Origin: a virus
Lineage: Duplodnaviria; Caudoviricetes
Reading direction: 5' to 3' (one strand)
Length of the DNA: 53,048 bases
Virus record (IMG/VR): IMGVR_UViG_3300030090_003345
Location: 1 to 53,048 of that record
Below the pieces are notes generated by a model, which saw only the letters and a program-made list of their open reading frames with translations, was not told where the DNA came from and made no database searches. Below, piece by piece: positions 1-26,224 of the stretch (position 1 is its first letter; the number at the start of each line of letters is the position of its first letter). The position numbers and the translations under genes were made by a program.

Positions 1-100
1 TTCATTGTTGCTCCTAATCAGTTTGGTCAATGCAAATAATAACATATTCGCTAAACAACGATTTTACCTGTTCAACAGAATCTGCAATTACATAAATGTA
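1..100 (+). repeat. Terminal direct repeat, left copy (probably circular-assembly overlap)
   Basis: 1-100 equals 52949-53048 except one mismatch at position 99; the repeat lies inside a small ORF. Confidence 0.95.
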
Positions 101-4177: not shown

Positions 4178-4700
4178 TAGACCTAATGGTAAGTTTACAC
4201 CGCTTCCTTACTACGACAATTACTTAGTAAGTATTGGGTATAAGGTCTACGAGGAGGGTCGCAAGGAGTTTGATAACTATCTGTGCTTTACACATGATGA
4301 AGAACCCCCTACAAAACTTGGGCACACTAAATTTCAGTATGTCTTAGATCGTGCTGATGTCATTGTAGGTCATAACATTAAGTTTGATCTCAACTGGATT
4401 AAGTCTTGTAATTTTAAATATGATGGACCTGTGTATGACACGATGGTAGCAGAGTATCTTCTTGCGCGGTCAAGACGATGGCCTCTTTCATTGGAGGCAG
4501 TCGCTAAAAGGTATGAGGTCACTCAGAAAAAGAAAGACCTTACAGCGGAATACCTTAACTCAGGTAAAACGTTTGCACAGATACCTTGGGAAATAGTCGA
4601 GGAGTATGGGCGGGCTGACGTTGATGCCACATGGGAAGTTGCGTGTAAGCAGGTTCAAGAACGTTACAAAACATCTTGGGAGGCAATCTATGGCTTCTAA
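4137..4700 (+). CDS. Stand-alone 3'-5' exonuclease of a split family A DNA polymerase
   Basis: ExoI FDVET, ExoII GHNIKFD, YDTM, ExoIII YGRAD. Confidence 0.9.
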   Translation: MNILTFDVETTHISRPNGKFTPLPYYDNYLVSIGYKVYEEGRKEFDNYLCFTHDEEPPTKLGHTKFQYVLDRADVIVGHNIKFDLNWIKSCNFKYDGPVYDTMVAEYLLARSRRWPLSLEAVAKRYEVTQKKKDLTAEYLNSGKTFAQIPWEIVEEYGRADVDATWEVACKQVQERYKTSWEAIYGF

Positions 4701-6234
4701 GTTACTGCCCACATTACGTCTCTCCTTTGAAATGACCAACGTGTTATCAAACATAGAACGTAATGGAATACATATAGATCTAAATGCACTAGATAAAATT
4801 GAAGCTGAGTACAAGGATGAACTAAACAAACTAGAAAAGTTCTTGCAGGATGAAGCTCAAAAGGCAATGGGGGATACCCCAATCAATTTGCAATCGCCTG
4901 ATGATCGTTCCATGCTATTTTACTCTAGGCGTGTCATAGATAAAAAGAGATGGTCTAGTATTTTTAATCTAGGCAGTGAGGTACGGGGGTCGACTCGTAA
5001 GCAAAAGTTACGCACAAGAATGTCACAGCGGGACTTTAATGCAAACGTACGTGTTAACACCGAAATCTTGTACAAAACAAAAGCTTCTAAGTGCACAGCC
5101 TGTATGGGAACTGGTCGTAAAAAGGTGCTTAAAAAGGACGGCACTGTGGGTAAAGCAGTAAGGGTATGTCGTTCGTGTAATGGCACTGGATTACTCTACG
5201 AAAAAACATCTGAGTATGCCGGTTTCAAAATCACTCCCAGAGACTCTTGGGACACTGCTTCAGCAGGATTTAAAACAGATCATGAGACATTAGATCAGCG
5301 ATTGCCAGAGCTTAGTGGAGAGGCTAGGCGTTTTGCAGAAGCATACACGCGATTCAACGCTCTACGAACGTATCTTTCAACATTTGTTGAAGGGCTTAAA
5401 AACAATTGTGATCGGAAGGGCTTGGTTCATCCCGACTTCATGCAGTGTATTACAGCAACTGGAAGGCTATCTTCACGAAACCCAAACTTTCAAAACATGC
5501 CGCGAGGCTCAACTTTTGCAATTAGAAAAGCGGTGACCTCTAGGTTTGAGGGTGGCAGTATCATGGAGGCGGATTACTCCCAGCTTGAGTTTAGGGTAGC
5601 GGGCTACCTAGCTAATGATCCACAGGCTTATCACGATGTTGAAAATCAGGTAGATGTGCATTCAGTTACAGCGGATATCATTGGGTGTAGTAGACAAGAA
5701 GCAAAAGCGCACACCTTTAAACCTCTGTACGGAGGAACAACAGGCACAAGAGACCAACAGAGGTACTACCGTGCTTTCAAGGAAAAGTATGCGGCGGTGA
5801 CTGTATGGCATAGAGATTTGCAGAAGGACGCTGTAGAAAAGGGGTACATAGAATTACCGTCAGGTAGACAGTACGCTTTTCCCGGCACTACGTGGAATGA
5901 ATGGGGAAGTGCCACTAATCGCACAGCCATATGTAATTATCCGGTGCAGGGCTTTGCTACAGCAGACTTACTACCAATAGCTTTAGTTTATTTAACTAAA
6001 TTAATTCAGGAGTCAAACTGTAAAAGTTTGATATGTAATACAGTACACGATAGTATCGTGCTTGACATTTTTCCCGGGGAGGAACAAACTGTTGCAGACA
6101 TGGTAATGGAGGCTATGCTTTCAATACCAAGTGAGTGCCAACGCCGTTACGGTATAGTTTACGATATGCCTGTCGGGTTGGAAATTAAAGTAGGTCCCAA
6201 TTGGGGTAACCAAAAAGAGATAAGGACGGTATGA
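4690..6234 (+). CDS. polA: Family A DNA polymerase, polymerase part with DnaJ-like zinc finger (HMO-2011 type)
   Basis: TGRLSS, motif A DYSQLEFR, motif B RQEAKAHTFKPLYG, motif C VHDS; CTACMGTG and CRSCNGTG; GGGAGG SD 6 nt before ATG 4690. Confidence 0.93.
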   Translation: MASKLLPTLRLSFEMTNVLSNIERNGIHIDLNALDKIEAEYKDELNKLEKFLQDEAQKAMGDTPINLQSPDDRSMLFYSRRVIDKKRWSSIFNLGSEVRGSTRKQKLRTRMSQRDFNANVRVNTEILYKTKASKCTACMGTGRKKVLKKDGTVGKAVRVCRSCNGTGLLYEKTSEYAGFKITPRDSWDTASAGFKTDHETLDQRLPELSGEARRFAEAYTRFNALRTYLSTFVEGLKNNCDRKGLVHPDFMQCITATGRLSSRNPNFQNMPRGSTFAIRKAVTSRFEGGSIMEADYSQLEFRVAGYLANDPQAYHDVENQVDVHSVTADIIGCSRQEAKAHTFKPLYGGTTGTRDQQRYYRAFKEKYAAVTVWHRDLQKDAVEKGYIELPSGRQYAFPGTTWNEWGSATNRTAICNYPVQGFATADLLPIALVYLTKLIQESNCKSLICNTVHDSIVLDIFPGEEQTVADMVMEAMLSIPSECQRRYGIVYDMPVGLEIKVGPNWGNQKEIRTV

Positions 6235-11977: not shown

Positions 11978-12001
11978 AGGTCTTTTGAAGACCTTTTTTT
12001 T
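11978..12001 (+). terminator. Putative intrinsic terminator between nrdA and nrdB
   Basis: AGGTCTT-TTG-AAGACCT hairpin followed by a T run. Confidence 0.55.
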
Positions 12002-12025
12002 GTCTATAATAATTAGGAATAACAA

Positions 12026-12988
12026 ATGTCTTTATTAGAAGAATCAATAACTTACAAGCCGTTTAAGTATCCTTGGGCTGTGGAGGCCGCTACTTCTCAC
12101 GAAAAAATCCACTGGGGTGAATGGGAATGTAAACTACAAGAGGATGTTGCACAGTGGCAGTCCGGTAAGTTAAGCAGTCACGAAAAAAATCATATTACGC
12201 AAATACTAAAGTTGTTCACACAGTCTGACGTGATGGTTGGGAGAAACTATCTTGAATACTATATTCCAAAATTTAAAAACAATGAAATTCGTGCTATGCT
12301 TACATCTTTTGCTAATAGGGAGTTTGTTCATCAGCGGGCTTACGCACTCCTTAATGATACCTTAGGGTTGCCAGAGGAGGAGTTTTCAGCGTTTTTGGAA
12401 TACAAAGAAATGTCTGATAAGATTGAATTTATGAGCAACATCAATATTCACACAGTTTCTGGGACTGCCCAAGCTATTGCTCGTTCTGTTATGAACGAGG
12501 GCATGTCGCTGTTTTCTGCTTTTGTTATGCTACTTAATTACCAGCGGTTTGGTAAGATGCGGGGGATGTGTGAAATTGTAGAGTGGAGCATCAGAGATGA
12601 GACGATGCACACCAACGGTATGGTCAAACTGTTTAGGGAGTTTTGTGATGAGCACCCTCGTATTGTTAATGATGAGTTCAAAAAAGATATATACGAAATG
12701 TTCCGTACTGGCATAAAGCTAGAGGACAAAGTCATAGACAATGCTTTTCAGATGGGTCCGGTAGAGGGTCTTACTTCAGAAGAAGTGAAGAAGTACATTC
12801 GGTACATTGCAGACAGACGGTTGATTCAACTAGGTCTTAAAGGTAATTGGAAAGTTAAGAAGAATCCCGTCCCGTGGTTGGAGTGGGTGCTAAACGGTGC
12901 ATCCCACAAAAATTTCTTTGAGGGCACTGTAACAGATTACAACGCTAACGGAATGGAAGGCGAATGGGGGTGGAAGGTAGCGTCATGA
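12026..12988 (+). CDS. nrdB: Class I ribonucleotide reductase, small subunit
   Basis: FTQSD, REFVHQRAY (radical Tyr), EGMSLFSAF, RDETMH, C-terminal NFFE..VTDY. Confidence 0.95.
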   Translation: MSLLEESITYKPFKYPWAVEAATSHEKIHWGEWECKLQEDVAQWQSGKLSSHEKNHITQILKLFTQSDVMVGRNYLEYYIPKFKNNEIRAMLTSFANREFVHQRAYALLNDTLGLPEEEFSAFLEYKEMSDKIEFMSNINIHTVSGTAQAIARSVMNEGMSLFSAFVMLLNYQRFGKMRGMCEIVEWSIRDETMHTNGMVKLFREFCDEHPRIVNDEFKKDIYEMFRTGIKLEDKVIDNAFQMGPVEGLTSEEVKKYIRYIADRRLIQLGLKGNWKVKKNPVPWLEWVLNGASHKNFFEGTVTDYNANGMEGEWGWKVAS

Positions 12989-13473
12989 TTCGTATCACCC
13001 CGACTCCTAATCAGATTAAGGAAGCTGAACGTATTGCTAGTGGAGTGATGGTGTTGCAAGGAAGCATCACCCGGGGTAACGGAAATTCTGCTGGAGCTTT
13101 AGGGGAGGTCATAGTTCGTGATTATATGAAATACGAACATACACCCACACAGCACTATGATCTCTCAGACCCACGCACGGGTCGCACAGTCGACGTTAAG
13201 ACTAAGCGGTGTACCTCCGCTCCAAAAAACTATTATGAGTGCTCTGTAGCGGCTCACGGTTCGTCTCAGGAGTGTGATGACTACGTGTTCGTAAGAGTTT
13301 TAAATAACTTGCAACAAGCTTGGATATTAGGTACGATATCTAAAGATGAATACTACGCAAAAGCGGTAAGATACAAGAAGGGCGACATGGACGAGAGTAA
13401 TAACTTTATTTTTAAAGCCGATTGTTACAACTTACCGATAAGCGAATTATGGAAAATAGAGCAAGGTTGTTGA
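12985..13473 (+). CDS. Putative PD-(D/E)xK-fold protein
   Basis: GALGE...YDL...VDVKT motif. Confidence 0.55.
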   Translation: MIRITPTPNQIKEAERIASGVMVLQGSITRGNGNSAGALGEVIVRDYMKYEHTPTQHYDLSDPRTGRTVDVKTKRCTSAPKNYYECSVAAHGSSQECDDYVFVRVLNNLQQAWILGTISKDEYYAKAVRYKKGDMDESNNFIFKADCYNLPISELWKIEQGC

Positions 13474-13655
13474 ATTTTACGATACATTTAAACCGTGATG
13501 GAAATTTAGAGTTTGATCTTAATTCTGTAGATACACCAAGTATGGAATCTGTGCTTCGTAAGCTGGGTGACCCTGTTTATAGTCATAGGGTGGGAAAGAT
13601 AGTAAGAAATTACTTTAGAGTTTTATCAGAAAAAATGAAGGATGAAAGAACTTAA
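13449..13655 (+). CDS. Hypothetical protein
   Basis: TAATG overlap with the next gene. Confidence 0.6.
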   Translation: MENRARLLNFTIHLNRDGNLEFDLNSVDTPSMESVLRKLGDPVYSHRVGKIVRNYFRVLSEKMKDERT

Positions 13656-14326
13656 TGTCCTACCTCATATCAAACATACCGTACTTTAAGTGTTGGGTAC
13701 GAAAAGAATTTACAGCCAATCATCAGGATTACCACGGTGAATATCTTCATGCACTTGCAATCGCTGTAAATACCATAACTGATAGGTCACTCACCTTTCA
13801 GGTTGTGTTTACAGGTTGTGAGATTGATCTTGAGGAGGGTCTTGAAAATGTACACGGAGGTGCAATGTGGGCAAGGATGCCCATTCAAGCTCTGGTTTTT
13901 GATATGGAACTGGAGGAGTGGCCTGAAAGGATGGAAGATCACTTAGCACAGCCGTGGGACTGTGAATCACGTAACCATGAAGTTATCGTGATGGATCGGG
14001 TTAGCTCAAGTCCTTGGATAGCAAAGATAGATGGTGAGTTTTATGAAGCAAGATATTTGTTTACTGTAGATTACACAGAGAACGATATTGCAGATTCACC
14101 AGATCAACACAAACAATCTCATGTCCTGTATCTCACAGAAGGGCAGTGGGAAGGAAATGTGGTTGCCCTGCCAAACAACCGGGTTAGAGCTACGAGTCCA
14201 GCCCTGTGGAGAACAGGAGAAGGTGCTCCTGACTTTGCTCCTAGCCAGTATGTTCATTCTGCGGAGGGGGATAGCACGTACACTGATCCCAGCATCACGT
14301 TCAATAACCTGTACGCAGAGGAATAA
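13655..14326 (+). CDS. Conserved marine-phage hypothetical protein
   Basis: 223 aa; GGAMWARMPI, QPWDC, YLFTVDY, HKQSH, ALPNNR motifs; last gene of the plus-strand block. Confidence 0.8.
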   Translation: MSYLISNIPYFKCWVRKEFTANHQDYHGEYLHALAIAVNTITDRSLTFQVVFTGCEIDLEEGLENVHGGAMWARMPIQALVFDMELEEWPERMEDHLAQPWDCESRNHEVIVMDRVSSSPWIAKIDGEFYEARYLFTVDYTENDIADSPDQHKQSHVLYLTEGQWEGNVVALPNNRVRATSPALWRTGEGAPDFAPSQYVHSAEGDSTYTDPSITFNNLYAEE

Positions 14327-14349
14327 AAAAAGGGGGACCTCAGCCCCCC
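14325..14349 (-). terminator. Intrinsic terminator at the convergence of the late and replication blocks
   Basis: Minus strand reads GGGGGGC-TGAG-GTCCCCC-TTTTTTT. Confidence 0.75.
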
Positions 14350-14367
14350 AAATGTTTTCTTCTTATT

Positions 14368-14586
14368 TTAAGTACTTTGAAGTCCGTATCTATTGGATTT
14401 CGTATAATCCAACATTCTCATTCGTGATCGTCCCTTAGGTTTAGGACTTTTTGCTCGTCCTACACGATATTTTTCACGAAATGCAGGGGCTACCTGCCCG
14501 TCAACTTCAGCAGATCCTTGAGCACGGCGTGGCGTATTTTCGGTTTCATCAATGCGACGAAATACTCTTCCCTCCTGATTACTCAT
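14368..14586 (-). CDS. Small basic hypothetical protein
   Basis: 72 aa, R/K-rich; last gene of the late block. Confidence 0.65.
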   Translation of the reverse strand: MSNQEGRVFRRIDETENTPRRAQGSAEVDGQVAPAFREKYRVGRAKSPKPKGRSRMRMLDYTKSNRYGLQST

Positions 14587-14701
14587 GTTGATCTTCTACT
14601 TTCTCTTCTTCTTCATGGTGCTCGTGACAGCACTCCCCCTCATGCTCGTGATGCTCACCGTCATGCTCGTGGCAACATGTTCCCTCGTGTTCTTTGTGCA
14701 T
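14579..14701 (-). CDS. 40-aa His/Glu/Cys-rich Hpn-like putative metal-binding microprotein (not in ORF track)
   Basis: MHKEHEGTCCHEHDGEHHEHEGECCHEHHEEEEKVEDQHE*; GGGGGAG SD; starts 2 nt after the upstream stop and overlaps the next start by 8 nt. Confidence 0.8.
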   Translation of the reverse strand: MHKEHEGTCCHEHDGEHHEHEGECCHEHHEEEEKVEDQHE

Positions 14702-14703
14702 AT

Positions 14704-15120
14704 CTATCTCCCCCGGCCCCCACGAGCCATACCTTTGGTTTTCTTACCACCATACATGGCTTTAGCACGACCCTTAGTAGTCTTACCACCACGCATCATT
14801 GCTTTACCCTTGGTAGCTTTACCGCCACCCATCATCTTACCCTTACCGTCTGCGGCAAAAGCTGGCACCATCTTGCCGTTTTTCTTGACCATAGGCATCT
14901 TACCGCCTTTCGCCATCATTGCACGACCTTTGGTGGTTTTACCACCGCCCATCATCTTAGTTTTACCTTTAGTTTTTTTACCAGCCATTGCCGATCCTCC
15001 GTTTGCCATCATCATTGGAGCAGATTGCTCTGCCGCCGCTTTCATTGCCATTTGGGTGTTTGTTCCTTGCATACCACCCATCATAGCTGGTTTACGTGGA
15101 ACGTTTTTGTAAGGCTTCAT
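14704..15120 (-). CDS. Low-complexity K/G/M/A-rich basic protein (protamine/histone-like)
   Basis: Repeated M(M/R/Y)GG(G)K(T/A/K)TKG units; almost no acidic residues; GGAG SD. Confidence 0.75.
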   Translation of the reverse strand: MKPYKNVPRKPAMMGGMQGTNTQMAMKAAAEQSAPMMMANGGSAMAGKKTKGKTKMMGGGKTTKGRAMMAKGGKMPMVKKNGKMVPAFAADGKGKMMGGGKATKGKAMMRGGKTTKGRAKAMYGGKKTKGMARGGRGR

Positions 15121-15134
15121 TTTAGGGTATCTCC

Positions 15135-18100
15135 TTAGTTAGAAGGGTCTAGATCACGAGGTGCGCGTGGAAGAGGTGCTCTTTCAAACTCCGCTCCTAC
15201 CACAGATGTGTCTCTTTCGTCACTTAAAAAGTCTGCTCTTGCTTGAGTACGAGCAATTGCTAATGTAGTTAATTGAACCCAAGCCAAAGGTTGATCAAAG
15301 TTAAAGTCACCTTTCAATATAGTGTCTTCAATTTCTTTAGCGACTCTTGGATCAAAAAGAATTAATTTAGTTAACTCAAATTCAGATTGTCTTGCCGCAC
15401 GAATTGCCGCTTCTGATAGCAACCACCGTAAACTAATTACACCTCTAAAGTAGGATGTTCCGCGAGACAATAGAGATTCACCTGATAGAGGTCTAGACAA
15501 GCCCACAAGATTTGCATTTTCACTAGAGTTAGGTCCAAATAACGTTTCTCCGATTCTTACGAACGTGTCGTATACATTCGGGCCTGTATCATCAACTTGT
15601 AATAGCTCTCTGATAACTCTTTGTCTTTCAGTTGGCTGGACGCTCTCACCTTTGTAACCTATGTAGTCTAACAATCTATCTTGATTAATTCCCACTTGTC
15701 GTTGAGCATAAGTAACATTACTTGCTTCTTTAGATACACTTAAATTTGCCGGGGTGGTAATATCCTCAAAAATGTGGTTTTGCACCGCACTAGCGATTTC
15801 TACTCGCCAATTGGTTAGAATTTCTTCATCGGATATGTTTACTGCGTCTGGGTTAGCCTGTTTGTATTTGCGTACAAAGTTCAATCCCATATCGTCTAGC
15901 TTTGCAAGACCATTAGGACTTGTTGCAATAGTTACAATTTTTGCACCAACATTTTCTGAAGCGTCTAAAGCTCGTGCTAGTTCTAGCCCCGCCTCTAGTT
16001 GCATTCTTTCAGGTGATCTAATGCTTCTTAAAGCTTGAGTGTAAGTCTCCGCTCCCCTGCTTATGTTCGTGTTCATTTGTGTTACAGCTTGGTTAGCTTC
16101 ACGTACATACGGAATTATTTTTTCAAAAGCGTTAACCTCATCTAATCGGTTCGGATCAATAATCGGTTTACCATTTACATCCACAAAAATATCTGGACTA
16201 AAGTGCTTAAACTTAATTCCGTTTGCATCCTCTAAGTTTTCAAACTTAACATCCACAGAATTAAAGTTAGGTATTGTTTTATCTAATATAGCAGTCCTAT
16301 CATTTGCATAGTCAACAATATTTTTCATCATTTTTGTACCGGGCAACTGTTCCATAGTTGAGTACACATAACGAGTTAGAATATTAGAAATAACTTGACC
16401 TTGAGGTGTATTTAAATCAATTTGTTTTACACCAAAAAGCATAGCTAACTTACGATTAAGTTTTAGTGCATCAGCGGGTTCTAAAATTTCTTTATTGTAA
16501 CCACTTTCTTTTAAAAGATCGGAAATAAAGTTTATGTTCATGTCCTGTTTTATACTGGACGATTTAAGCATTCTTGCAACAGCCGGGGACATTTCACGAA
16601 AAGGATTAATGTACGTTTCTAGGTAGTTAGTTTTAGCCGCACTCCAATCTTTTGCAAATTGTGGCAGTGTCTGCCGTTCACCGTACCTATGAAAGTTAAC
16701 AAATATGTTTTCTTCCGCCTGATCTACTAAAGCGCGTTTAGCCTCTCCAAGCGGCACAGCCTCAGGTTTACCCCTATACTTTCTTAAATCAGCACTGATG
16801 CCAGATACAATCTGCATATAAGTGGGAACATCTAAACCTATGCGAGGAGTCAATTCGTTAATAGCATCTTGGGTAAGTTTACCGCCCAGTTCATCTACCA
16901 TAAACTTTTTAATTGCTATAAACTTATCTACAAAAGAACTATCTTCAGTTAACTCAGCGGCCTGATAGATTTTTTCTACCATCTCGTCTGCTGTATCAGG
17001 AGACCTTTCTCTAAATCGTATTAAAAACTGTTCTACGGATTCTTCGGCACCGCTCTCAAATAAGCTGAGTAACTGCCTTTGCATAGGCCCTTTGAATTGT
17101 ACGCCTTGTATTTTACGGGAGGCCGTTTCTCCTTCTTTGAGAATTGGAAGTATATACTCTATCGCGCCTTCATCTAAATCCCATACAGCTTCGTCAAGAT
17201 TGTCTAGTGTACGAGGATTCAACCCAGCTAACTCAAAGAAAATGTCAGTCGTATCAATTCTTGCATCTTTATACGGACTATCCTCAGCACGTAGTGCGTT
17301 AAACGGAGCACTGGCGTTGTGGTAAGCTCTTTGCTCTTGAATGAGAAGTGCGCTAACCAGCAGATCGTTAGATGATAGACTATTCGGATTGTTAACATCA
17401 GAAGAAGGTATTTTTGCTTTTGTGTTTCTATCTGAAAGCTTAGCTAATTCAGTGAAAACTTCATCGACTGTTTCGTTTACTCTGTCTATACTTGATTCTG
17501 TCGCGTTAGGCAAATACATAACCTCAGGAAGGTTATCATTGTCGGGCAATGCTGGGATGTTTTCCTCTTTCACACCATTAGCGCGTAATGTTCTTTGTTG
17601 TTCAAGGGCTTCGGTTGCCATACCTTCTTTAACTGAAAGCGCAAGAAGACTTTTTATAGTATTATTGTTTTCTGCAAATTCCTCGGGGGTTCTTGCCGCG
17701 GCCTGACCATTAATTGCAGTTTTCAAATTGTCTAAGTGAGTGGCACCAGCGACTAGCAAAACTTCTTCTTCAAACTTTAAATTTTTTAGTGATTGATCAT
17801 AAAAAGTTTGTAAATCTCTAAGCATTATTCCTAAATTACTATTAGCATCATACCCCCTAGTATTTTTGACGGGGTCAAGAGCTTGTAGAATTTTACCTAG
17901 TTTATCAGTTAAACTGTACTTTTGAACATGGTTTTCAACCATTGCCCCGTACTTTTTAGAAAACTTAGCAACATCTCTTGATATGTGCTGTGTCTGAGAT
18001 GCCATCTCTTTCATTCTGCCGTCTAGCCCTAATAAACCCGCGGTGTACACAAATGCTTGAACAAAATCGTCACGATCAACAATCGGCTGTCCTCGTAAAC

Positions 18101-20609
18101 CTTCCACGGGATATGTTTCTGGGTAAACTATTGCACTTAACTCGTCTGCCGCCTCCTCTTTTCTAGCAAGAAACGCTAAGTACTGGTCTTGTATTACCGG
18201 GGGAGCGCGTTCTAGAGCACGTCTAGCTGTTACTGCTTCGGGACTAAGTACTTCCTCTCCTATGGCTAAAGTAAGGGGGCGTTGCATAAGAGGTAAAGGA
18301 ACGTCTACTCGTGCAGATACTGGACTTAAACGTCCTACCATTCTAAAAACGTCTGATGTTTTATCCCCTACAAAACGATTTACTTGTGGAATTATGGTAG
18401 CAATACTACCCAACGCGCCCAACATTCCTGAATAAAACTCACTTCCTTCTGCACCGGGAACTGAGCCTTGGTAAGAGAACTGATATACGGTCGCTCCTAC
18501 AAAAGTTGACCGTGCCTCTTGTAACCAAAATGCTTTTTCGGATGGAGGGAAACGAGCTTGAATGCTTAATTCTTGTAGGTCTTCTTTTTTCTTTTTGAGT
18601 GTGCCCTCTAGGAGAGTACGATATTCAGTCCCCCTGCCCACTTTACCCGGGTTTTTATCATTAGCTACAATTTTAAGCTCTAAATCCCGAATTTCTTTTT
18701 GTAATTTTTTTGCCTCAGGACCCACCAGTATTTTTCGTACCTCAGGAGATAGGCTAGTCTGTCGAGCAATGCCCCCATCTATAAGAGAAGCTAGCATCTC
18801 TCGTTTGAAGCCTAGTTTAGAGGACTGATCAAGAAACTCTTTAAATATTTCAAATGGACTTTTACCAGTTTGTTCAGCAATTTGTAAAGCTTGTAAGAAA
18901 GGGTCTTCCTCTAGCTTATTAAATGGTGTTCTAGGATCTAAACTCCACCGTTGTCTTGTCGCTTGATCAGCTAACTCTTTCTTTCTAGCTTTAAAAAGTT
19001 CTGCTGTGGCTTTTTCACCTTGATCTTCAACTATTTGTGCTCTAGAAAGACCGTAGTATTCTTCTACGTCAGCGTCGGTTATTTCAGTAGGAGATTTGCC
19101 CGGTCCATATTTTTGTGTTACGTATGCGGCAAAATCATCTAGCACTTTACCACTCATGACAGTGGTTATTCCTTTAACACCCCCTCCAAAAACTAAAGAT
19201 TCTAAGCCAAACTGAGTTAAAACACTGAACGCATCAGGGGTGTAGCCTAACATAAAGTCTATAGCGTCGGGGGAAAGGTCCGTCGTGCTTTCGTAGTACT
19301 CACGAACACTACCGTACACGAGAGGCATTTTTATGAAAGCACCGTTTCCATCAAGTTTATCTGTAATTTCATCGATGTTTTCTTGAGTAAGCCCCCTTTT
19401 TGTTGCGTCAATTGTGGATAGCATTGCGTCGGCGTCTTTAATTGCAAAGTCACTGTAAGCACCCATTTCAATAGCAGTTTCCGTCATTCGTAACGGTACG
19501 TCTAACGTAAAGTCAGTAATTACCCTGTCTAAAAAATTCAAACCTTTGCCTAACAAACCTGCTGTGTCGTAAATACCGCGACCTTTTCTTACGTATGTTA
19601 AACTATCATCTAAACCAAGAGTCCCCTGTCTTTTGGCAAGCATGACTTGTTTTGTAGGACCCAGATCGTATTTACGAACTAGTTTATTAAAAAAGTCTAG
19701 CCCGCCATCTTCAGTTTCACTGCGTAAAAAGAATCTAACCCCGGTGTAGTCTTGACCTATCGCATCACTTTTCTGCTCCATTCTTGCAAAAGTTTCTCTA
19801 GGGTTAAAGAGAGCACGATTTCCTTCAGAATCTTCTAACATATACACAAGAGAAGGATTACCTCTTACAGGTAAGAGTGTGCCGTCTTCCTGTTGCTGTT
19901 GTACAGTTCCCTCTGCTAGTTCTATTACCCGACCATTAATGTCTGTCGACTCACTCGTAAAAGCCTGTCCTCGCTCGTGTCCTCTGAAAACTTGCGGTGA
20001 ACCATCAGGACCGTATATAATCTCGCCTTTTTCATTAGCATCCACGTAGTAAAACTTACTTGCGTCTCTCAGCACTCTAATTTGGTTTGGAGATAAATCG
20101 TTGTTTCCGGGGGATGAAAACAGCAGTCGACGATACGTTGCACCGACTGTAGCACGTAGCTCGTTCCTGTTTTGAGGCGTGATTTTTCCTTGGGCTTCTA
20201 GTCCGTAAAATGTTGCGGGTAGTGTCTGATCGTTGGGATTGCCGTAATCGGCAAGTAGATCAGTGAGTTCTTTATTAGGATCAACAGGGGCGGCTTGTGC
20301 GGCAGAAATACCGGGGATAAAAGGTAAATTCGGTGCCTGTTCAGCTTCGGGTATAATCTCAACTTCTGGTTCCGGGGTTTGTTTTACTTCAACTCCGGGT
20401 AAAGCTTCAGCTACCTGTTGATCAACACTCTTTTCTTCTGGCGGTTTTTCTTGAATAAGCTGTCTTCCACGAATAAGATTGTTGTAATCTTGTTGCGTAA
20501 CTTCGCCCTGCACATCCGCAGGAGTTAGCGGGGCAGATATATTTCTAGCCGTGTTTACCCTAACATCTTCAGGTTTTTGTGGAGCTAGCGCATTTAAATT
20601 AACAGCCAT
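15135..20609 (-). CDS. Large internal virion (ejection) protein, putative
   Basis: 1824 aa at the end of the structural block; no catalytic motif recognised. Confidence 0.65.
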   Translation of the reverse strand: MAVNLNALAPQKPEDVRVNTARNISAPLTPADVQGEVTQQDYNNLIRGRQLIQEKPPEEKSVDQQVAEALPGVEVKQTPEPEVEIIPEAEQAPNLPFIPGISAAQAAPVDPNKELTDLLADYGNPNDQTLPATFYGLEAQGKITPQNRNELRATVGATYRRLLFSSPGNNDLSPNQIRVLRDASKFYYVDANEKGEIIYGPDGSPQVFRGHERGQAFTSESTDINGRVIELAEGTVQQQQEDGTLLPVRGNPSLVYMLEDSEGNRALFNPRETFARMEQKSDAIGQDYTGVRFFLRSETEDGGLDFFNKLVRKYDLGPTKQVMLAKRQGTLGLDDSLTYVRKGRGIYDTAGLLGKGLNFLDRVITDFTLDVPLRMTETAIEMGAYSDFAIKDADAMLSTIDATKRGLTQENIDEITDKLDGNGAFIKMPLVYGSVREYYESTTDLSPDAIDFMLGYTPDAFSVLTQFGLESLVFGGGVKGITTVMSGKVLDDFAAYVTQKYGPGKSPTEITDADVEEYYGLSRAQIVEDQGEKATAELFKARKKELADQATRQRWSLDPRTPFNKLEEDPFLQALQIAEQTGKSPFEIFKEFLDQSSKLGFKREMLASLIDGGIARQTSLSPEVRKILVGPEAKKLQKEIRDLELKIVANDKNPGKVGRGTEYRTLLEGTLKKKKEDLQELSIQARFPPSEKAFWLQEARSTFVGATVYQFSYQGSVPGAEGSEFYSGMLGALGSIATIIPQVNRFVGDKTSDVFRMVGRLSPVSARVDVPLPLMQRPLTLAIGEEVLSPEAVTARRALERAPPVIQDQYLAFLARKEEAADELSAIVYPETYPVEGLRGQPIVDRDDFVQAFVYTAGLLGLDGRMKEMASQTQHISRDVAKFSKKYGAMVENHVQKYSLTDKLGKILQALDPVKNTRGYDANSNLGIMLRDLQTFYDQSLKNLKFEEEVLLVAGATHLDNLKTAINGQAAARTPEEFAENNNTIKSLLALSVKEGMATEALEQQRTLRANGVKEENIPALPDNDNLPEVMYLPNATESSIDRVNETVDEVFTELAKLSDRNTKAKIPSSDVNNPNSLSSNDLLVSALLIQEQRAYHNASAPFNALRAEDSPYKDARIDTTDIFFELAGLNPRTLDNLDEAVWDLDEGAIEYILPILKEGETASRKIQGVQFKGPMQRQLLSLFESGAEESVEQFLIRFRERSPDTADEMVEKIYQAAELTEDSSFVDKFIAIKKFMVDELGGKLTQDAINELTPRIGLDVPTYMQIVSGISADLRKYRGKPEAVPLGEAKRALVDQAEENIFVNFHRYGERQTLPQFAKDWSAAKTNYLETYINPFREMSPAVARMLKSSSIKQDMNINFISDLLKESGYNKEILEPADALKLNRKLAMLFGVKQIDLNTPQGQVISNILTRYVYSTMEQLPGTKMMKNIVDYANDRTAILDKTIPNFNSVDVKFENLEDANGIKFKHFSPDIFVDVNGKPIIDPNRLDEVNAFEKIIPYVREANQAVTQMNTNISRGAETYTQALRSIRSPERMQLEAGLELARALDASENVGAKIVTIATSPNGLAKLDDMGLNFVRKYKQANPDAVNISDEEILTNWRVEIASAVQNHIFEDITTPANLSVSKEASNVTYAQRQVGINQDRLLDYIGYKGESVQPTERQRVIRELLQVDDTGPNVYDTFVRIGETLFGPNSSENANLVGLSRPLSGESLLSRGTSYFRGVISLRWLLSEAAIRAARQSEFELTKLILFDPRVAKEIEDTILKGDFNFDQPLAWVQLTTLAIARTQARADFLSDERDTSVVGAEFERAPLPRAPRDLDPSN

Positions 20610-20625
20610 CTAATTGTCCTTGCGT

Positions 20626-23370
20626 TTACCTTACTACTTGGATACTCTGGTTGTTTCCAGCATTTGGAACTTGGCTTTGAATTGAAACAGATTGAGACTG
20701 TCTTATATCTCTAATTACTGGCTTTAAATCACCAAACAAATCTCCAATACTCTTACTGCCGCCCCGTGCATCTGTTAAAAATTTATGCCCATGAGTTGCT
20801 AAAACTACTCTTGCGTTGCCTGATTGATAGTTTGCAAGGTACGTAGCCTGACGCTCAGCTTCTGCATACATTTTTTCTAAAATAACTCTTACAACATCTA
20901 CTCTTGCTATTTTACCTAACGCGCCTATTGCCGCGTCAGCGTTAGCCCTATCCGCATCTGATAGACGACCATTAGGATCATTCATGGATGCGTAAGCATA
21001 GGCCGCGATAGTTAGATGGTACTTTAAAAGAGCATCGGCTCTTTCAGCGTCTGTAAATGCTGTATTTGTAGACTTAGCTTTGAACTCTTGTAGTGTCTTG
21101 TTTGCTTTTTCAAACGTTTCTGCGTCTCTTGGGTCATCTGTGTTAAAAAGGGAGTTTAATCGCCCCCCTTCCATAAGAGAATCCTCTAATGTTTTGAAAA
21201 ATCCAAAACCTCTTGTTATACTTGCCTCAAAACCTACTGTTCCTCCAGCACCAATTGCATCAAGACCCCCTCCAGCAGAATCTTTTAGTCTTTGGGCCTG
21301 TTTTTGTCTGTTACTTAAATCAGCGTAGGCGCTTGCTGAAGTATTTCCAGTTACTGCATCATATGTGGCTTGTCCAAGAGGTACTCCACTCCGTCTAAAA
21401 GTAGTTACTTCCTCTACATCAGCGGCAGGTATGGTTGCTTGTAAAGCGATAATACTATTATTCGTACTTCCAAAATACGTTAAGTTTTTCGCTAATTTGT
21501 TTACCTCCTGCGTTCCTATTTGACCGACAGGAAATCTAAGCACTGTTCTACCGCCTTCTGTTACAGAAAACGAATATATGCGTTCTCCAGTTCTTGGATT
21601 TTTTCTATTAAGTATTTTTTTTGTATCTACTAGTGCATCATAAGCTTGTTCAGCACTTTTATTAGTAGAAAAAGCACCTAGATCATCTGTAGAAACTCTG
21701 TACGCATTTGCAGAATATACCGCAGACGACGTATCGGGTGCTCCACTTATTATTGTACCTAAAGTATACCCATCAACATCACTTTCGTTTTCTATATCAA
21801 GAAAAGTTTGTACAACTTCCGGTTTAAATACTGTTACCGTACCACCATCACCAGCGTCTACTTGTGTGGTAAAAGCTGGGTTTTCTCCTAGAGTGGGGTG
21901 TTGATGCACATACAAGTTATTTGCTAATTCTGGCTTTGTAGGATGAAGACTAAAACCACTAGCTCTTGCGGGATTATTTACCACTGGCTCTAATACTTCT
22001 ATTGCTTGTTTTAAAAACGTCTCACTGTCAAATCTTTTTTTCGCATAAGGAAACTTATCTCGTAGATAAAGAGCAATTGGAACAGCGACATAGAAGTTTT
22101 CGTATTCCACGTCCTCCCCACCATTTTTTAACTTGGTTTTAGTTGAACCCAAATCACTTTTTTGCCACATTGTAGCCGTAGCTATTAGTTGTTCTGTAAG
22201 CTTTTCAAGTTGTCTTGTAGCATTATTCTCAATCATCGCATCTATAATTTTTTCTGTAAAAGCAGAATTAAACCCCTCTACATCACGTCCCGCTTTCACT
22301 GCTTCGTTGGTAGTTATTCCAGATTTTCTAATTAGGTAATCTTCCCCTTCCACCAAGTTTTTCATCTCGTCCCCTTTTACAGGAAGATCGGGTTTGAGAT
22401 AGTGTACTGTAAACGACCCGTCGTCAGGATAATTGTCTCTCTTTAGCAGATAATTAAAACCATACGCTACTCCGGTGGTTTGATCTGTAATCTTGGGATC
22501 GTTTTCAGGTTTAGACGTATCCTGTTTTCCGGTGACACCACGAACCATTACCGTAATTACACCGTCACCACCTATTTCCACAAACGCTCGGTTTGAACTA
22601 CCCGCATTTATAAGTTCTTCGTTTCGTCGTTGAGCCTCTGCCTCTGCTTCCTCTTTGCTTGAAAAACTTGAAGTCGAAACTACGTTGGGTTTGTACGATG
22701 GTTTTCCGTTTTTTTGTTCTATGCCTACCGTCGCCTTGAAAGTTGTGTCCGTATTTTCGTTCAACTTATTGGCGAGATCTTGTGCTAGTGCTAGTGCCGC
22801 GTCATACGACATGGGAGGTATTGACCTTTTAGCAGATTTAATTACATGACCGTTTTTTTCGGAGTCATACATAGAATAGAAAACTTGGTCCGTCTCTTTT
22901 CCAATAGTCTCATTTAAATATTGAGCACGGGCCTCTGCTAGGTCTTGGCTTACAGGTAGAGTTCTCTCTATTATTTTGTTATCAGGACCAACACTAAAGT
23001 CTATAATAGGCACACGTCTGTCAGCAAGACCTTCAGGAAACGGAATTCCACGAGAAGGTTGAATGTTGTACAGAGCATCTAACCTTCGTACTTCAGCTAA
23101 AGCAGTTTCTCTTTCTTGATCACGTTGTACTTGGTCTAAAGCATCTAGTTGTCTTTGTTTCTCAACATCAGCCGCTACTCTTACCTGTTCTTCAAATAAC
23201 TTTTGCTGTTGTTCTATTAGTTGTTGCTCTATAGCCGCTGTTCTTTCTTGTTCAGCCTGACGTTCAGCGGCGGATGTAAATTTACCCGTCTTTGTGTCGT
23301 AGATTATTCCACGGTCATTGTACTCTCCAACCGCACCTGCCGCAAAAGCTGTTAAAAAACTACCCAACAT
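20626..23370 (-). CDS. Internal virion protein, putative
   Basis: About 914 aa; N-terminal FLTAFAAGAVG segment then coiled coil; GAGGAG SD fits ATG 23370. Confidence 0.6.
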   Translation of the reverse strand: MLGSFLTAFAAGAVGEYNDRGIIYDTKTGKFTSAAERQAEQERTAAIEQQLIEQQQKLFEEQVRVAADVEKQRQLDALDQVQRDQERETALAEVRRLDALYNIQPSRGIPFPEGLADRRVPIIDFSVGPDNKIIERTLPVSQDLAEARAQYLNETIGKETDQVFYSMYDSEKNGHVIKSAKRSIPPMSYDAALALAQDLANKLNENTDTTFKATVGIEQKNGKPSYKPNVVSTSSFSSKEEAEAEAQRRNEELINAGSSNRAFVEIGGDGVITVMVRGVTGKQDTSKPENDPKITDQTTGVAYGFNYLLKRDNYPDDGSFTVHYLKPDLPVKGDEMKNLVEGEDYLIRKSGITTNEAVKAGRDVEGFNSAFTEKIIDAMIENNATRQLEKLTEQLIATATMWQKSDLGSTKTKLKNGGEDVEYENFYVAVPIALYLRDKFPYAKKRFDSETFLKQAIEVLEPVVNNPARASGFSLHPTKPELANNLYVHQHPTLGENPAFTTQVDAGDGGTVTVFKPEVVQTFLDIENESDVDGYTLGTIISGAPDTSSAVYSANAYRVSTDDLGAFSTNKSAEQAYDALVDTKKILNRKNPRTGERIYSFSVTEGGRTVLRFPVGQIGTQEVNKLAKNLTYFGSTNNSIIALQATIPAADVEEVTTFRRSGVPLGQATYDAVTGNTSASAYADLSNRQKQAQRLKDSAGGGLDAIGAGGTVGFEASITRGFGFFKTLEDSLMEGGRLNSLFNTDDPRDAETFEKANKTLQEFKAKSTNTAFTDAERADALLKYHLTIAAYAYASMNDPNGRLSDADRANADAAIGALGKIARVDVVRVILEKMYAEAERQATYLANYQSGNARVVLATHGHKFLTDARGGSKSIGDLFGDLKPVIRDIRQSQSVSIQSQVPNAGNNQSIQVVR

Positions 23371-23968
23371 CTTCATTCTCCTCAGGCTCAGTCACTTCTA
23401 CAACATCTCCTTCCTGTAGCTCCGCATCAATAAATCCAGAAGGTATGCGGGGTTCACTAGGTGGTTTTTTCATACCAGCCTGTGCTTTCGCTGTTATTGC
23501 ATTGTCACGATCCAACATAAACTCATACAAATCAGGATTCCTAACTTTCATTAAGTCAAGAATTGTTTCATCAGACATACCTTCATCAGGCACAGCATCA
23601 GAGTCCTTCGCGTACAAATGTGCAGGAATACCGTATTTATCTGCCATACCCATAAGATAAAACGCAATTTGAGGTTTAATTAATTCAGCTACGTCTACAG
23701 AAAACTCCCCGTACATAAACCCCGCCATAGATATGGACGTTGCAATCTCTTCAGCAGACACACCTGCTAACATAAGCTTTCCAAAAGTAGCCTCTACTTC
23801 TGGCTGTTCCATCTGATCTAAAATGTTAGAAACAACAGCGTTGGGGTCAGTTTGTTGTGGAGGACTTTCCCAATTCCATTTTTGTGGCTCTTGTGTTAGA
23901 GACCATCCGGGAATAGCTTTTTGCATTCTATCTGGATTAATTTTTGGAGTAGGGCCAGTGCGATCCAT
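23360..23968 (-). CDS. Conserved virion-module protein
   Basis: IPGWSLT..P..WNWESPPQ motif typical of this phage group. Confidence 0.7.
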   Translation of the reverse strand: MDRTGPTPKINPDRMQKAIPGWSLTQEPQKWNWESPPQQTDPNAVVSNILDQMEQPEVEATFGKLMLAGVSAEEIATSISMAGFMYGEFSVDVAELIKPQIAFYLMGMADKYGIPAHLYAKDSDAVPDEGMSDETILDLMKVRNPDLYEFMLDRDNAITAKAQAGMKKPPSEPRIPSGFIDAELQEGDVVEVTEPEENEDVG

Positions 23969-23976
23969 AGTTTATC

Positions 23977-24483
23977 TCACTTTTTAATTCTTGAAATATT
24001 AGCTGTGCCTAACTTTGTAGTTAGGTCTTTTGTGCTAGGAGTTACAGCGGTTATTCTACTAACAGAAGCTTTAATGGTGGGTACACGACTATTTAAAGTT
24101 CTAAAAATACCGTTTAATACGCGGGGGTCAGCGTTCTGAAAGTACGCATCAGTCTGCGTAGAACGACCCCTTGCGGCGGCTACGCCTGATTGAAAATTTA
24201 AAGGAAGAGTGCTCTGTTGGGGTAACTGATAACCTTGAGGTTGACCACCCCCGCCTCCACCTAGTGCTTTTGTTGCAAAACCTGTAGCAAGATCCTTACC
24301 TGTGCCTTTAATGGCTTGATAGCCGAAACCAAGTAAACTACTGCCCCCAGCACCTCCTGCTGAATACGTCGCATCAAAGTTTTGAAAAGCACTAACAGCA
24401 CTTTGAACATAGCCCGACCCAAAGGCCCCACTTCCTACGTACGCATTATACCCGTTTGTTATTGCTTTCTTAAATAAACTCAT
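23977..24483 (-). CDS. Gly/Ala/Ser-rich putative ejection protein
   Basis: Composition and position; start moved to ATG 24483. Confidence 0.55.
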   Translation of the reverse strand: MSLFKKAITNGYNAYVGSGAFGSGYVQSAVSAFQNFDATYSAGGAGGSSLLGFGYQAIKGTGKDLATGFATKALGGGGGGQPQGYQLPQQSTLPLNFQSGVAAARGRSTQTDAYFQNADPRVLNGIFRTLNSRVPTIKASVSRITAVTPSTKDLTTKLGTANISRIKK

Positions 24484-24493
24484 GAGTATTTTC

Positions 24494-25849: not shown

Positions 25850-25852
25850 ATC

Positions 25853-26224
25853 TTACTTCTTTATCTTATTTAATATCGCATCGCCTACTTTATACCCAAA
25901 TGCACTAAGTACACTTACATAAAGAAGACCCTGATAAAATTCTGGTAAAGCTTTGAGAGCGGCAAAGCCCTCATGGAGTCGGGTAATAACGGTAAGATCG
26001 TCAAAAGTTACAGCGTATGCTATAGCTAGTATAGGGAATGTTAAGACAATTGTAAAGAAATCGTCCCTCCACCCTGAGTTATTTAAAGCAATTTTTTCCC
26101 ACTCTGACTTATCTGCTAATTTTTCTAGCTTTACATCTCTTTTAATTTTATGCTCTTTAACCTTGCCGTCCATCCAATCTTTAGCAAGACTAACTACGCC
26201 TGATAATACGGTTCCCCATATCAT
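25853..26224 (-). CDS. Holin-like membrane protein
   Basis: Amphipathic N-terminus, SGWRDDFF motif, two TM segments, LPEFYQ, basic tail. Confidence 0.55.
   Translation of the reverse strand: MIWGTVLSGVVSLAKDWMDGKVKEHKIKRDVKLEKLADKSEWEKIALNNSGWRDDFFTIVLTFPILAIAYAVTFDDLTVITRLHEGFAALKALPEFYQGLLYVSVLSAFGYKVGDAILNKIKK

What the first reader, a model, noticed from the sequence alone, without database searches (positions are those of the whole stretch)
14579..14701. Hidden phage Hpn-like His/Cys-Cys metal-binding microprotein
Seen: the gap between two late genes is filled exactly by MHKEHEGTCCHEHDGEHHEHEGECCHEHHEEEEKVEDQHE. It has 40 aa with 11 His, 14 Glu, 2 Asp and two Cys-Cys pairs, and an internal repeat EHEG(T/E)CCHEH using different synonymous codons. 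It has an SD and overlaps the next start. Known: Helicobacter Hpn is a small His-rich protein with two Cys-Cys pairs that stores Ni and also binds Zn and Cu. Inference: a phage metal sponge or metallochaperone expressed late. It could supply phage metalloproteins (tail cupredoxin site, Zn fingers, NrdB), be packaged, or starve metal-dependent host defences. I know of no description of this in this phage group.
Basis: partly seen in the sequence, partly recalled or inferred. Interest (0 to 1): 0.85.

Follow-up and report, generated by a model that had tools for sequence, protein, structure and literature searches.

The report
Phage His/Cys-rich 40-residue microprotein gene
A marine phage carries a small, well conserved late gene for a 40-residue acidic peptide rich in histidine, with two cysteine pairs; it probably binds trace metals, but it is not a relative of the Helicobacter protein Hpn and its role is untested.

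Summary
ORF 14579..14701 (-) encodes the stated 40-aa peptide (11 His, 14 Glu, 2 Asp, two Cys-Cys pairs). It starts 2 nt after the upstream stop, has a GGGGGAG Shine-Dalgarno sequence, and overlaps the next start by 8 nt.

It is a real coding gene. Nine loci give five DNA haplotypes. In the 31-codon core, 8 of 10 variable sites are third positions and 7 are synonymous. pN/pS is 0.12, against 0.41 and 0.71 for neighbouring ORFs. Ten protein variants keep all four Cys and nine His. The gene persists while its flanking genes are swapped.

The window is a 99%-complete HMO-2011-type marine podophage. The gene lies among the last ORFs of the structural operon.

The family is an orphan. A profile search of 1.84 billion proteins found only its own cluster, and Pfam, PHROGs, NCBIfam and PDB gave nothing. 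It was absent from the four cultured relatives examined.

The Hpn likeness is convergent: paired acidic-Gly-CC motifs, but no poly-His runs and no detectable homology. The same CCHEH-x10-CCH motif recurs in bacterial CobW/COG0523 GTPases and P-type ATPases. Metal binding is therefore a sound chemical inference. The metal and the biological role are unknown. The gene is already called "hypothetical" in public sets, so it is unnamed rather than hidden.

The parts
14579..14701 (-). CDS of the 40-aa His/Glu/Cys-Cys peptide. Conserved core is codons 1-31; the acidic tail, codons 32-40, is variable.
   Evidence: ORF confirmed. In the core, 8 of 10 variable sites are third positions and 7 of 10 are synonymous. 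pN/pS is 0.12. 25 of 31 core columns are invariant in 10 protein variants.
14663..14692 (-). Repeat module 1, EHEGTCCHEH (codons 4-13)
   Evidence: translation; 21 of 30 nt identical to module 2; six synonymous codon differences.
14618..14647 (-). Repeat module 2, EHEGECCHEH (codons 19-28)
14708..14714 (-). Shine-Dalgarno-like GGGGGAG, 6 nt before the ATG, inside the 3' end of the upstream ORF
   Evidence: In L004 the same GGGGGAG serves the GTG start of an 87-aa ORF at the identical position. Relatives with the 87-aa ORF give the peptide a different SD (TAGGAG, 9-nt spacer).
14579..14586 (-). ATGAGTAA overlap: the peptide's last codons and stop overlap the start of the 72-aa ORF (translational coupling, inferred)
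   Evidence: In L016 a different downstream ORF is joined by TAATG.
14368..14586 (-). Downstream 72-aa basic ORF (pI 10.9, net +9, no Cys or His), last gene of the late strand
   Evidence: relatives reach down to 51% identity; no family hit.
14704..15120 (-). Upstream 138-aa Met/Gly/Lys-rich hyperbasic ORF (29 G, 27 K, 23 M; pI 11.75; net +32)
   Evidence: Relatives carry versions of 133-214 aa. No family hit.
14332..14349 (.). G+C-rich hairpin with T runs on both strands: a bidirectional terminator-like site between the convergent early and late gene blocks

Best explanation
This is a real, lineage-specific late gene of an HMO-2011-type marine podophage. It encodes a 4.9-kDa, strongly acidic peptide that is almost certainly disordered on its own. 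The peptide is built of two 15-residue modules (H-x-EHEG-x-CCHEH-x-x-E) followed by a variable acidic tail.

The most likely mechanism is reversible binding of several soft or borderline transition-metal ions (Zn, Ni, Co, Cu, possibly Fe(II)). The ligands would be the two Cys-Cys pairs, the nine invariant His (including three HEH motifs) and neighbouring carboxylates. Made in the cytoplasm together with the virion proteins, the peptide would act as a small metal buffer or donor.

Shown here: the ORF, its translation signals, purifying selection on the peptide, invariance of Cys and His, its mosaic but constant position, and its orphan status. Inferred: translation, metal binding, which metal, and any physiological role.

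My separate estimates are: real coding gene about 0.9; binds metals in vitro about 0.8; metal handling is its biological function about 0.5. The confidence given for this explanation is the last of these.
For: 1. Coding.
- In the 93-nt core across 9 loci (5 haplotypes), 10 sites vary. Eight are third positions (P=0.0034 under equal positions) and 7 are synonymous (P=7e-5 given 13.6% synonymous sites).
- Window versus L016 gives pN/pS 0.12, against 0.41 for the 87-aa ORF fragment and 0.71 for the 107-aa ORF.
- The antisense ORF in the same codon register takes only amino-acid-changing substitutions, and is cut to 54 aa in relatives.

2. Ligand conservation. Ten protein variants on about 59 contigs keep C9, C10, C24, C25 and nine His. 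Core substitutions are H2Q, T8P, D14N, G15C, E19D and E27K only.

3. Translation signals are kept through rearrangement.
- Two different upstream contexts each supply an SD.
- In the window the ATG sits exactly where the 87-aa ORF's GTG sits in L004.
- Downstream, the peptide is coupled to a 72-aa ORF (ATGAGTAA), or in L016 to a 107-aa ORF (TAATG).

4. Composition is exceptional for this phage: 10% Cys and 27.5% His, against 0.34% and 0.94% in 10,904 late residues.

5. The motif is used by metal-handling proteins.
- CCHEH-x10-CCH in 185,579 species genomes gave 24 stretches. By my reading, 21 lie in His/Cys/acid-rich tracts of longer ORFs.
- Of 10 such ORFs sent to Pfam (7 genome, 3 metagenome), 5 are CobW/COG0523 GTPases, 3 are E1-E2 P-type ATPases, 1 is an ArsP permease and 1 has no family.
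- His stretches in G3E and COG0523 proteins are linked to metallochaperone activity (PMC2770081, passages).

6. No RNA alternative. There is no Rfam hit on the ORF and the fold z-score is 0.19.

7. A contig from a marine metatranscriptome library covers 14607-14729. This is weak, because DNA carry-over is not excluded.
Against: - No homology to any characterised metal-binding protein: Pfam, PHROGs, NCBIfam, a PDB profile search, and a profile search of 1.84 billion representatives that found only its own cluster.
- No metal transporter, metalloenzyme maturation gene or regulator lies nearby. The neighbours are hyperbasic proteins without Cys or His.
- No obvious client among late proteins: 3 HxH motifs outside the peptide, none in the tail fibre.
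- Narrow distribution: 4 IMG/VR contigs besides the window, and absent from the fetched regions of 4 of 4 cultured relatives (CRP-13, CRP-2, CRP-603, HTVC115P). It is therefore dispensable for the phage type.
- An acidic, His-rich peptide next to very basic proteins could serve charge-based roles instead.
- Translation and metal binding were not measured. Structure and complex predictions could not be run.
Confidence: 0.5

Rival explanations
1. Acidic partner, assembly chaperone or packaged counter-ion for the hyperbasic proteins encoded beside it (the Met/Gly/Lys-rich protein with net +32 and the 72-aa protein with net +9). Metal binding would be incidental or only structural. The peptide would keep these proteins soluble or off nucleic acid until assembly, or travel with them in the capsid.
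For: - Net charge is -14 beside +32 and +9.
- It is translationally coupled to the 72-aa ORF in 8 of 9 loci.
- It lies at the end of the virion gene block, after two very large ORFs (916 and 1824 aa). By size and position these resemble podovirus internal virion proteins (inference; IVP operon described in PMC4819975, passages).
- HTVC115P carries an Hsp20 chaperone and Lys/Gly-rich small ORFs at the same site.
Against: - Charge complementarity does not explain the invariance of four Cys and nine His while the purely acidic tail varies freely.
- L016 lacks the 72-aa ORF, and P0001 appears to be the last gene, so that partner is not obligatory.
- No binding test could be run.
Confidence: 0.2
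2. Host-directed effector. The peptide would sequester a metal needed by host enzymes or defences, or act as an acidic mimic, to the phage's benefit late in infection.
For: It is an accessory, lineage-specific small gene in a mosaic region, which is typical of host-interaction genes. Its composition is strongly acidic and metal-binding in type.
Against: It lies on the late structural strand rather than among early genes. There is no match in PHROGs to any anti-defence family. No target is known. PADLOC was not searched.
Confidence: 0.1
3. Regulatory leader or upstream ORF. Translation of the His- and Glu-rich frame would serve mainly to control, by coupling or stalling, the translation of the gene that overlaps its stop. 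The peptide itself would have no function.
For: Stop and start overlap in every context seen (ATGAGTAA, TAATG). The 72-aa ORF has only a weak SD of its own (read). Eleven His codons recall his-type leaders (recalled knowledge).
Against: - There is no terminator or alternative hairpin between the peptide and the next ORF: fold z-score 0.19 and the only terminator-like site near the operon end is at 14332-14349.
- Selection acts on the whole core, including Cys, Gly and Glu.
- The His residues are never in runs longer than 2.
- The downstream gene changes while the peptide stays.
Confidence: 0.07
4. Not translated: a chance open frame in purine-rich spacer DNA.
For: It is very short and of low complexity, and no proteomic or ribosome evidence exists. 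The ESM Atlas gave only weak leads (best 0.79).
Against: The substitution pattern, invariant residues, SD in two contexts, exact fit between genes and persistence through gene swaps all argue against it. The His count is beyond all 20 shuffles.
Confidence: 0.05

Closest known systems
Hpn and Hpn-2 of gastric Helicobacter (small His-rich nickel-binding proteins)
   Same: Both are small, stand-alone, cytoplasmic-type peptides rich in His and acidic residues. Both have two Cys-Cys pairs, each set in a short repeated acidic-Gly motif: EG(T/E)CC twice here, EEGCC twice in Hpn (PMC5312948 passage). The likely working principle, reversible multi-ion binding, is the same.
   Different: - No detectable sequence homology.
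- 27.5% His with no run longer than 2, against 46.7% with runs of 6 and 7 in Hpn.
- 40% acidic residues.
- CC pairs are 15 residues apart here, 13 in Hpn.
- It is encoded by a marine phage, whereas Hpn was acquired by gastric Helicobacter species (PMC4671568, title and passages).
- Metal binding here is untested.
His/Cys-rich tracts of CobW/COG0523 GTPases and of P-type ATPase N-termini
   Same: They carry the identical CCHEH-x10-CCH spacing and ECCHEH-type repeats. Such His stretches are tied to metallochaperone activity in G3E/COG0523 proteins (PMC2770081 passages).
   Different: Those are internal tracts of 375-743-aa enzymes or pumps. The phage peptide is the tract alone, with no GTPase or ATPase domain. 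The 'longer' search found no fused form among 538 candidates. The resemblance is in motif only, with no alignment-level homology.
HxH iron sites of phage tail fibres (T4 gp37; 'Ferrojan Horse' idea)
   Same: Both are phage-encoded and both have His-x-His motifs (three HEH here). The marine trace-metal context is shared (PMC11705849 passages).
   Different: Those motifs sit in trimeric fibre proteins and are structural. Here they are in a free acidic peptide with Cys pairs. The window's own tail-fibre protein has no HxH motif.
Bacterial metallothioneins (SmtA/BmtA type)
   Same: Small cytoplasmic metal buffers that use Cys and His (recalled knowledge, not from a call).
   Different: No Pfam hit of any kind at E<=0.1. 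Only 4 Cys, and His and Glu dominate.

Membership tests
Hpn/Hpn-2 (Helicobacter His-rich Ni-binding proteins) | Detectable sequence homology to Hpn-family proteins | tested here: not met
   A profile of 6 variants against 1.84 billion representatives found only its own cluster. The word-based search at 22-70 aa gave 4 hits, all close variants. No direct pairwise comparison with Hpn was made, because no tool supplied its sequence.
Hpn/Hpn-2 (Helicobacter His-rich Ni-binding proteins) | Very high His content (about 47%) with poly-His runs of 6-7 | tested here: not met
   11 of 40 residues are His (27.5%) and the longest run is 2. Hpn figures are from PMC5312948.
Hpn/Hpn-2 (Helicobacter His-rich Ni-binding proteins) | Two Cys-Cys pairs in short repeated acidic-Gly motifs | tested here: met
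   EGTCC and EGECC at residues 6-10 and 21-25, against EEGCC at 38-42 and 51-55 in Hpn.
Hpn/Hpn-2 (Helicobacter His-rich Ni-binding proteins) | Binds about 5 Ni per monomer and forms multimers | not testable with these tools
   This needs ITC, ICP-MS or gel filtration. The complex-prediction job (2 copies plus Zn) was never accepted because the queue was full (and later tries).
Stand-alone metallothionein (bacterial) | Match to a metallothionein family model; Cys-dominated metal cluster | tested here: not met
   No Pfam family at E<=0.1 and no NCBIfam family at E<=1. Only 4 Cys.
CobW/COG0523 or P-type ATPase metal-binding tract | Tract embedded in a GTPase or ATPase polypeptide | tested here: not met
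   The ORF is bounded by in-frame stops and neighbouring genes. No longer relatives were found among 538 candidates. The motif itself is shared.
Amino-acid-sensing leader peptide (his-type attenuator) | Run of regulatory codons followed by alternative terminator/antiterminator hairpins ahead of the regulated genes | tested here: not met
   No His run longer than 2. Fold z-score is 0.19. No terminator-like site lies between the peptide and the next ORF. No Rfam hit on the ORF.
HMO-2011-type phage (context of the gene) | TerL nearest to HMO-2011-type isolates; family A DNA polymerase with a partial DnaJ CXXCXGXG domain; about 53-56 kb with convergent early and late blocks | tested here: met
   TerL is 48-59% identical to CRP and HTVC phages. 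DNA_pol_A plus DnaJ_CXXCXGXG at 4606..6234, the latter below Pfam's cutoff (23.3 against 32.7 bits). The feature is described in PMC9038755. The record is 53,048 b and 99% complete.

The most novel reading that the evidence does not exclude
The peptide is the first example of a phage-encoded free metal-buffering microprotein: a trace-metal auxiliary gene. A widespread marine podophage lineage would use it to capture scarce Zn, Ni, Co, Cu or Fe in the infected cell late in infection. It would then either load the metal into virions (with the hyperbasic, Met-rich neighbour proteins) or hold it for phage enzymes. This would link viral infection directly to trace-metal cycling in the ocean.
Probability: 0.25. 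Interest if true: 0.75.

Novelty: new variant of a known kind. Interest (0 to 1): 0.5.

Why it matters
Small His/Cys-rich metal buffers are known from bacteria (Hpn, tracts of metallochaperone GTPases). My three literature searches and the main comparative paper on this phage group show none described from a phage.

HMO-2011-type phages are among the most abundant marine viruses (PMC9038755 abstract), and trace metals limit marine microbes. If the peptide binds metal in infected cells, it would be a new kind of viral auxiliary gene. It would also be a simple, synthesisable 40-mer with which to test virus-metal interactions.

The case is also a clean example of a micro-gene whose coding status can be shown from metagenomic variation alone. 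The caveat is that the lineage carrying it is narrow, and the function is inferred from composition only.

Tried and rejected
Homology and family searches that found nothing beyond the known lineage:
- Megablast of 12000-22000 against phages: no match.
- tblastn against phages of the 1824-aa, 72-aa and 138-aa proteins and of the peptide: no match. BLAST's low-complexity filter was on for the peptide.
- The search for related loci with the 1824-aa protein: 5 pattern matches, none confirmed.
- Viral-contig scans with the 87-aa ORF, the 107-aa ORF and the 72-aa alignment returned only the same 4 contigs. No lineage member lacking the peptide was found, and no more distant one either.
- ECCHEHH motif in IMG/VR: 15 stretches. 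Four are the known contigs and 11 are off-frame chance matches.
- ESM Atlas for the peptide: best score 0.79, unnamed clusters, so a lead only.
- PDB profile search: 0 at E<=10.
- P0010 (770 aa), placed in the peptide's 90% cluster, shows no likeness by eye. I treat it as a clustering artefact.

RNA evidence:
- Three metatranscriptome runs of one study hold small parts of the 13655-16655 stretch (shares 0.05-0.10).
- Contigs only, depth about 2-9, with most bins uncovered.
- This shows neither transcription nor its absence.

Tools that could not be used:
- Structure prediction: the job was interrupted, and new jobs were then not accepted.
- Complex prediction (2 copies plus 2 Zn): never queued, because the queue was full at every try. 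There is therefore no structural or oligomer result, for or against.
- Supplementary tables of PMC9038755 (orthologous groups) were not seen. They might list this ORF as an unnamed group.

Ideas considered and dropped:
- Stop-codon read-through fusion with the 87-aa ORF. Its TAG is in frame with the peptide in relatives, but the window's upstream stop is out of frame.
- A DNA microsatellite origin (no tandem repeat).
- Antisense coding (ORFs 14585..15112 and 14518..15138 on the + strand). These are not conserved and take only non-synonymous changes.

Full report
**What is there**

Its composition is 11 His, 14 Glu, 2 Asp, 4 Cys in two adjacent pairs, 3 Gly and 2 Lys. pI is 4.95, net charge is -14, and only two residues are hydrophobic.

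The upstream ORF (14704..15120, 138 aa) stops at 14704-14706. Two bases later comes the peptide's ATG, preceded by GGGGGAG at a 6-nt distance. The peptide's last codons and stop overlap the ATG of the next ORF (14368..14586, 72 aa) as ATGAGTAA.

The two EHEG(T/E)CCHEH copies translate as claimed. They share 21 of 30 bases, and six of the nine shared residues use different synonymous codons. No DNA tandem repeat is detected. The repeat actually extends to two 15-residue modules (residues 2-16 and 17-31), by my reading.

**Is it more than chance?**

- The 11 His in 40 residues exceed the best stop-free 40-residue window in each of 20 shuffles of the window (5-8).
- The phage's other 25 late ORFs (10,904 residues) have 0.34% Cys and 0.94% His.
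- The eight late ORFs nearest the peptide contain no Cys at all.

**Genomic setting**

The window is a whole IMG/VR virus record of 53,048 b, 99% complete.

- The large terminase is 48-59% identical to Roseobacter phages CRP-13, CRP-2 and CRP-603 and Pelagibacter phage HTVC115P.
- The family A DNA polymerase carries a partial DnaJ CXXCXGXG domain, a match below Pfam's cutoff. This is a hallmark described for HMO-2011-type phages (PMC9038755, passages).
- Replication genes, including class I RNR subunits, run on the plus strand to 14326.
- Packaging, head and tail genes and two very large ORFs (916 and 1824 aa) run on the minus strand down to 14368.
- The two blocks converge on a bidirectional terminator-like hairpin at 14332-14349.

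The peptide is thus the second-to-last gene of the structural strand. 'Late' is inferred from this position.

**Is it a gene?**

The 72-aa ORF led to four IMG/VR contigs (L001-L004). A back-translated motif scan of metagenome contigs gave 19 stretches, of which four encode the peptide (L010, L016, L026, L027). Eight of these loci encode the identical 40-aa peptide. L016 encodes a 42-aa variant.

Substitution pattern in the 93-nt core:
- Across the nine loci (five haplotypes), ten sites vary. Eight are third codon positions and seven are synonymous. P=0.0034 for the position bias, and P=7e-5 for the synonymous excess given 13.6% synonymous sites.
- Window versus L016 gives pN/pS 0.12, against 0.41 and 0.71 for the adjacent 87-aa fragment and 107-aa ORF. 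These are small samples.

The long antisense frames (14585..15112 and 14518..15138 on the plus strand) are in codon register with the peptide. They therefore take only amino-acid changes, and they are truncated in relatives.

The protein collections add further variants. In ten distinct peptides, 25 of the first 31 columns are invariant, including all four Cys and nine His. The tail after residue 31 varies freely but stays acidic. The exact window peptide is recorded on 33 contigs from four sources.

**A cassette that stays while its neighbours change**

- In all eight related loci an 87-aa ORF with one hydrophobic span lies between the Met/Gly/Lys-rich ORF and the peptide. The window lacks it altogether.
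- In the window the peptide's ATG occupies exactly the place of that ORF's GTG and uses the same GGGGGAG.
- Relatives instead use TAGGAG with a 9-nt spacer.
- Downstream, the peptide is coupled to the 72-aa ORF in eight loci. In L016 it is coupled to a 107-aa ORF (TAATG). L001 has both.
- P0001 reads on for 60 aa and is probably the last gene of its operon (my reading).

The SD plus codons 1-31 is therefore the conserved unit.

**Distribution**

- Two motif scans of 2.9 million IMG/VR contigs found only the same four contigs. A third, looser motif gave 11 further stretches, all chance frames.
- None of the 24 motif hits in 185,579 species genomes encodes the phage peptide; all lie in other ORFs.
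- The 'longer' search found no fused form.
- A profile search of 1.84 billion representatives returned only the peptide's own cluster.
- Pfam, PHROGs, NCBIfam and PDB gave nothing.
- In CRP-13, CRP-2 and CRP-603 the giant ORF is the last late gene.
- HTVC115P has five other small ORFs at this site (an Hsp20 and two Lys/Gly-rich ORFs among them), but no His-rich one.

The gene is an accessory of one sublineage.

**How it probably works**

No homology helps, so the argument is chemical and by analogy. Cys-Cys pairs flanked by His and carboxylates are metal ligands. The same CCHEH-x10-CCH arrangement turned up in bacteria almost only in His/Cys/acid-rich tracts (21 of 24 genome stretches, by my reading).

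Of ten such ORFs tested against Pfam:
- five are CobW/COG0523 GTPases;
- three are P-type ATPases;
- one is an ArsP permease;
- one has no family.

His stretches in this GTPase superfamily are linked to metallochaperone function (PMC2770081, passages). Hpn, with two EEGCC repeats, binds about five Ni per monomer reversibly and forms multimers (PMC5312948, passages).

I therefore think the peptide binds several transition-metal ions reversibly and is disordered without them. Which metal cannot be told. The three HEH motifs also recall the HxH iron sites of phage tail fibres (PMC11705849, passages). However, the window's own fibre protein has none.

**Rivals**

- Charge partner. The flanking proteins are hyperbasic and devoid of Cys and His (net +32 and +9). 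A role as their acidic partner or as a packaged counter-ion is plausible. It does not, however, explain why ligand residues are invariant while the acidic tail drifts.
- Leader peptide. This reading is weakened by the absence of any structure or terminator, and by selection on Cys, Gly and Glu.
- Host-directed sequestration. This remains possible but has no support.
- Non-translation. This is unlikely on the evolutionary evidence, though no direct product evidence exists. An RNA-library contig at depth 2.9 covers 14607-14729 and then continues, by my hand translation of its printed end, into the tail of variant P0006. DNA carry-over cannot be excluded.

**Comparison and novelty**

The peptide works like Hpn at most. 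It is not a member of that family: there is no homology, there are no poly-His runs, and the taxon and habitat are different. The gene is already called, but unnamed, in public protein sets.

I found no description of a phage-encoded peptide of this kind:
- 13 papers;
- 4 papers;
- 11 papers;
- no mention of 'histidine' or 'metal' in the HMO-2011 comparative paper.

None of these concerns such a peptide. Supplements were not seen.

I rate it a new variant of a known kind, of moderate interest. It is well established as a gene and plausible as a metal binder, but its biological role is open.

Noticed in passing
window 14704-15120 (-): The 138-aa ORF is made of 29 Gly, 27 Lys, 23 Met and 19 Ala (pI 11.75, net +32, no Cys or His), with loose GGK-T-KGK-AMM repeats. 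Relatives carry versions of 133-214 aa that share the N-terminal KPY-N-PRKP-MMGG stretch and the C-terminal KGMARGGRGR. No family was found. The nearest ESM Atlas clusters are unnamed viral ones (0.92-0.93). Met-rich tracts can bind Cu(I) (recalled), so a link with the peptide is conceivable but untested.
   Followed up: partly
L002-L004, L010, L026, L027 (for example L004:5610-5873) and L001:1027-1350, L016:273-596: Relatives carry two further small ORFs around the peptide: an 87-aa ORF with one hydrophobic span, and a 107-aa ORF with a hydrophobic N-terminus and a charged rest. The window lacks both. They could be membrane or lysis-type proteins, but no family was found.
   Followed up: partly
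L003:5871-5888 and equivalents: In relatives the TAG stop of the 87-aa ORF is in frame with the peptide ORF 15 nt downstream, so read-through would fuse them. In the window the upstream stop is out of frame, so this is probably coincidence.
   Followed up: no
window 14368-26224 (-) and all late ORFs: The late proteome is strongly depleted in Cys (0.34%) and His (0.94%). Eight consecutive late ORFs (3,900 residues, including the 1824-aa and 916-aa proteins) have no Cys. Early ORFs have 1.63% Cys and 2.25% His.
   Followed up: partly
L072:5411-6763 (Pelagibacter phage HTVC115P, record 17410-18762): Five small ORFs lie after this phage's giant late gene. They include an annotated Hsp20 family protein and two Lys/Gly-rich ORFs ending in KKGGKVSK. 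The same site in CRP-13, CRP-2 and CRP-603 is empty. The end of the late operon seems to be a hotspot for small accessory genes.
   Followed up: partly
L020:2404-3447, L028, L017: Metagenome ORFs with long CCCHEH/ECCHEH repeat tracts and no Pfam family (L020, 348 aa), and a His/Gly-rich fragment with three ECCH motifs (L017). These are uncharacterised cellular His/Cys-rich proteins.
   Followed up: no
window 13655-14326 (+): The 223-aa ORF convergent on the peptide operon matches PHROG 3704, labelled 'ferredoxin' (E 1e-29), but no Pfam family. It is nearly identical in the relatives.
   Followed up: no
L026 (metagenome contig of 105,890 b): The same phage locus lies on a contig about twice the phage genome length. 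This could be a concatemer assembly or something larger; I did not examine it.
   Followed up: no
window 15135-20609 (-) and 20626-23376 (-): Two very large terminal late ORFs (1824 and 916 aa) match no Pfam or PHROG family and have no tblastn match among 50,697 phage records (1824 aa only). By size and position they resemble podovirus internal virion proteins, which is inference only.
   Followed up: partly
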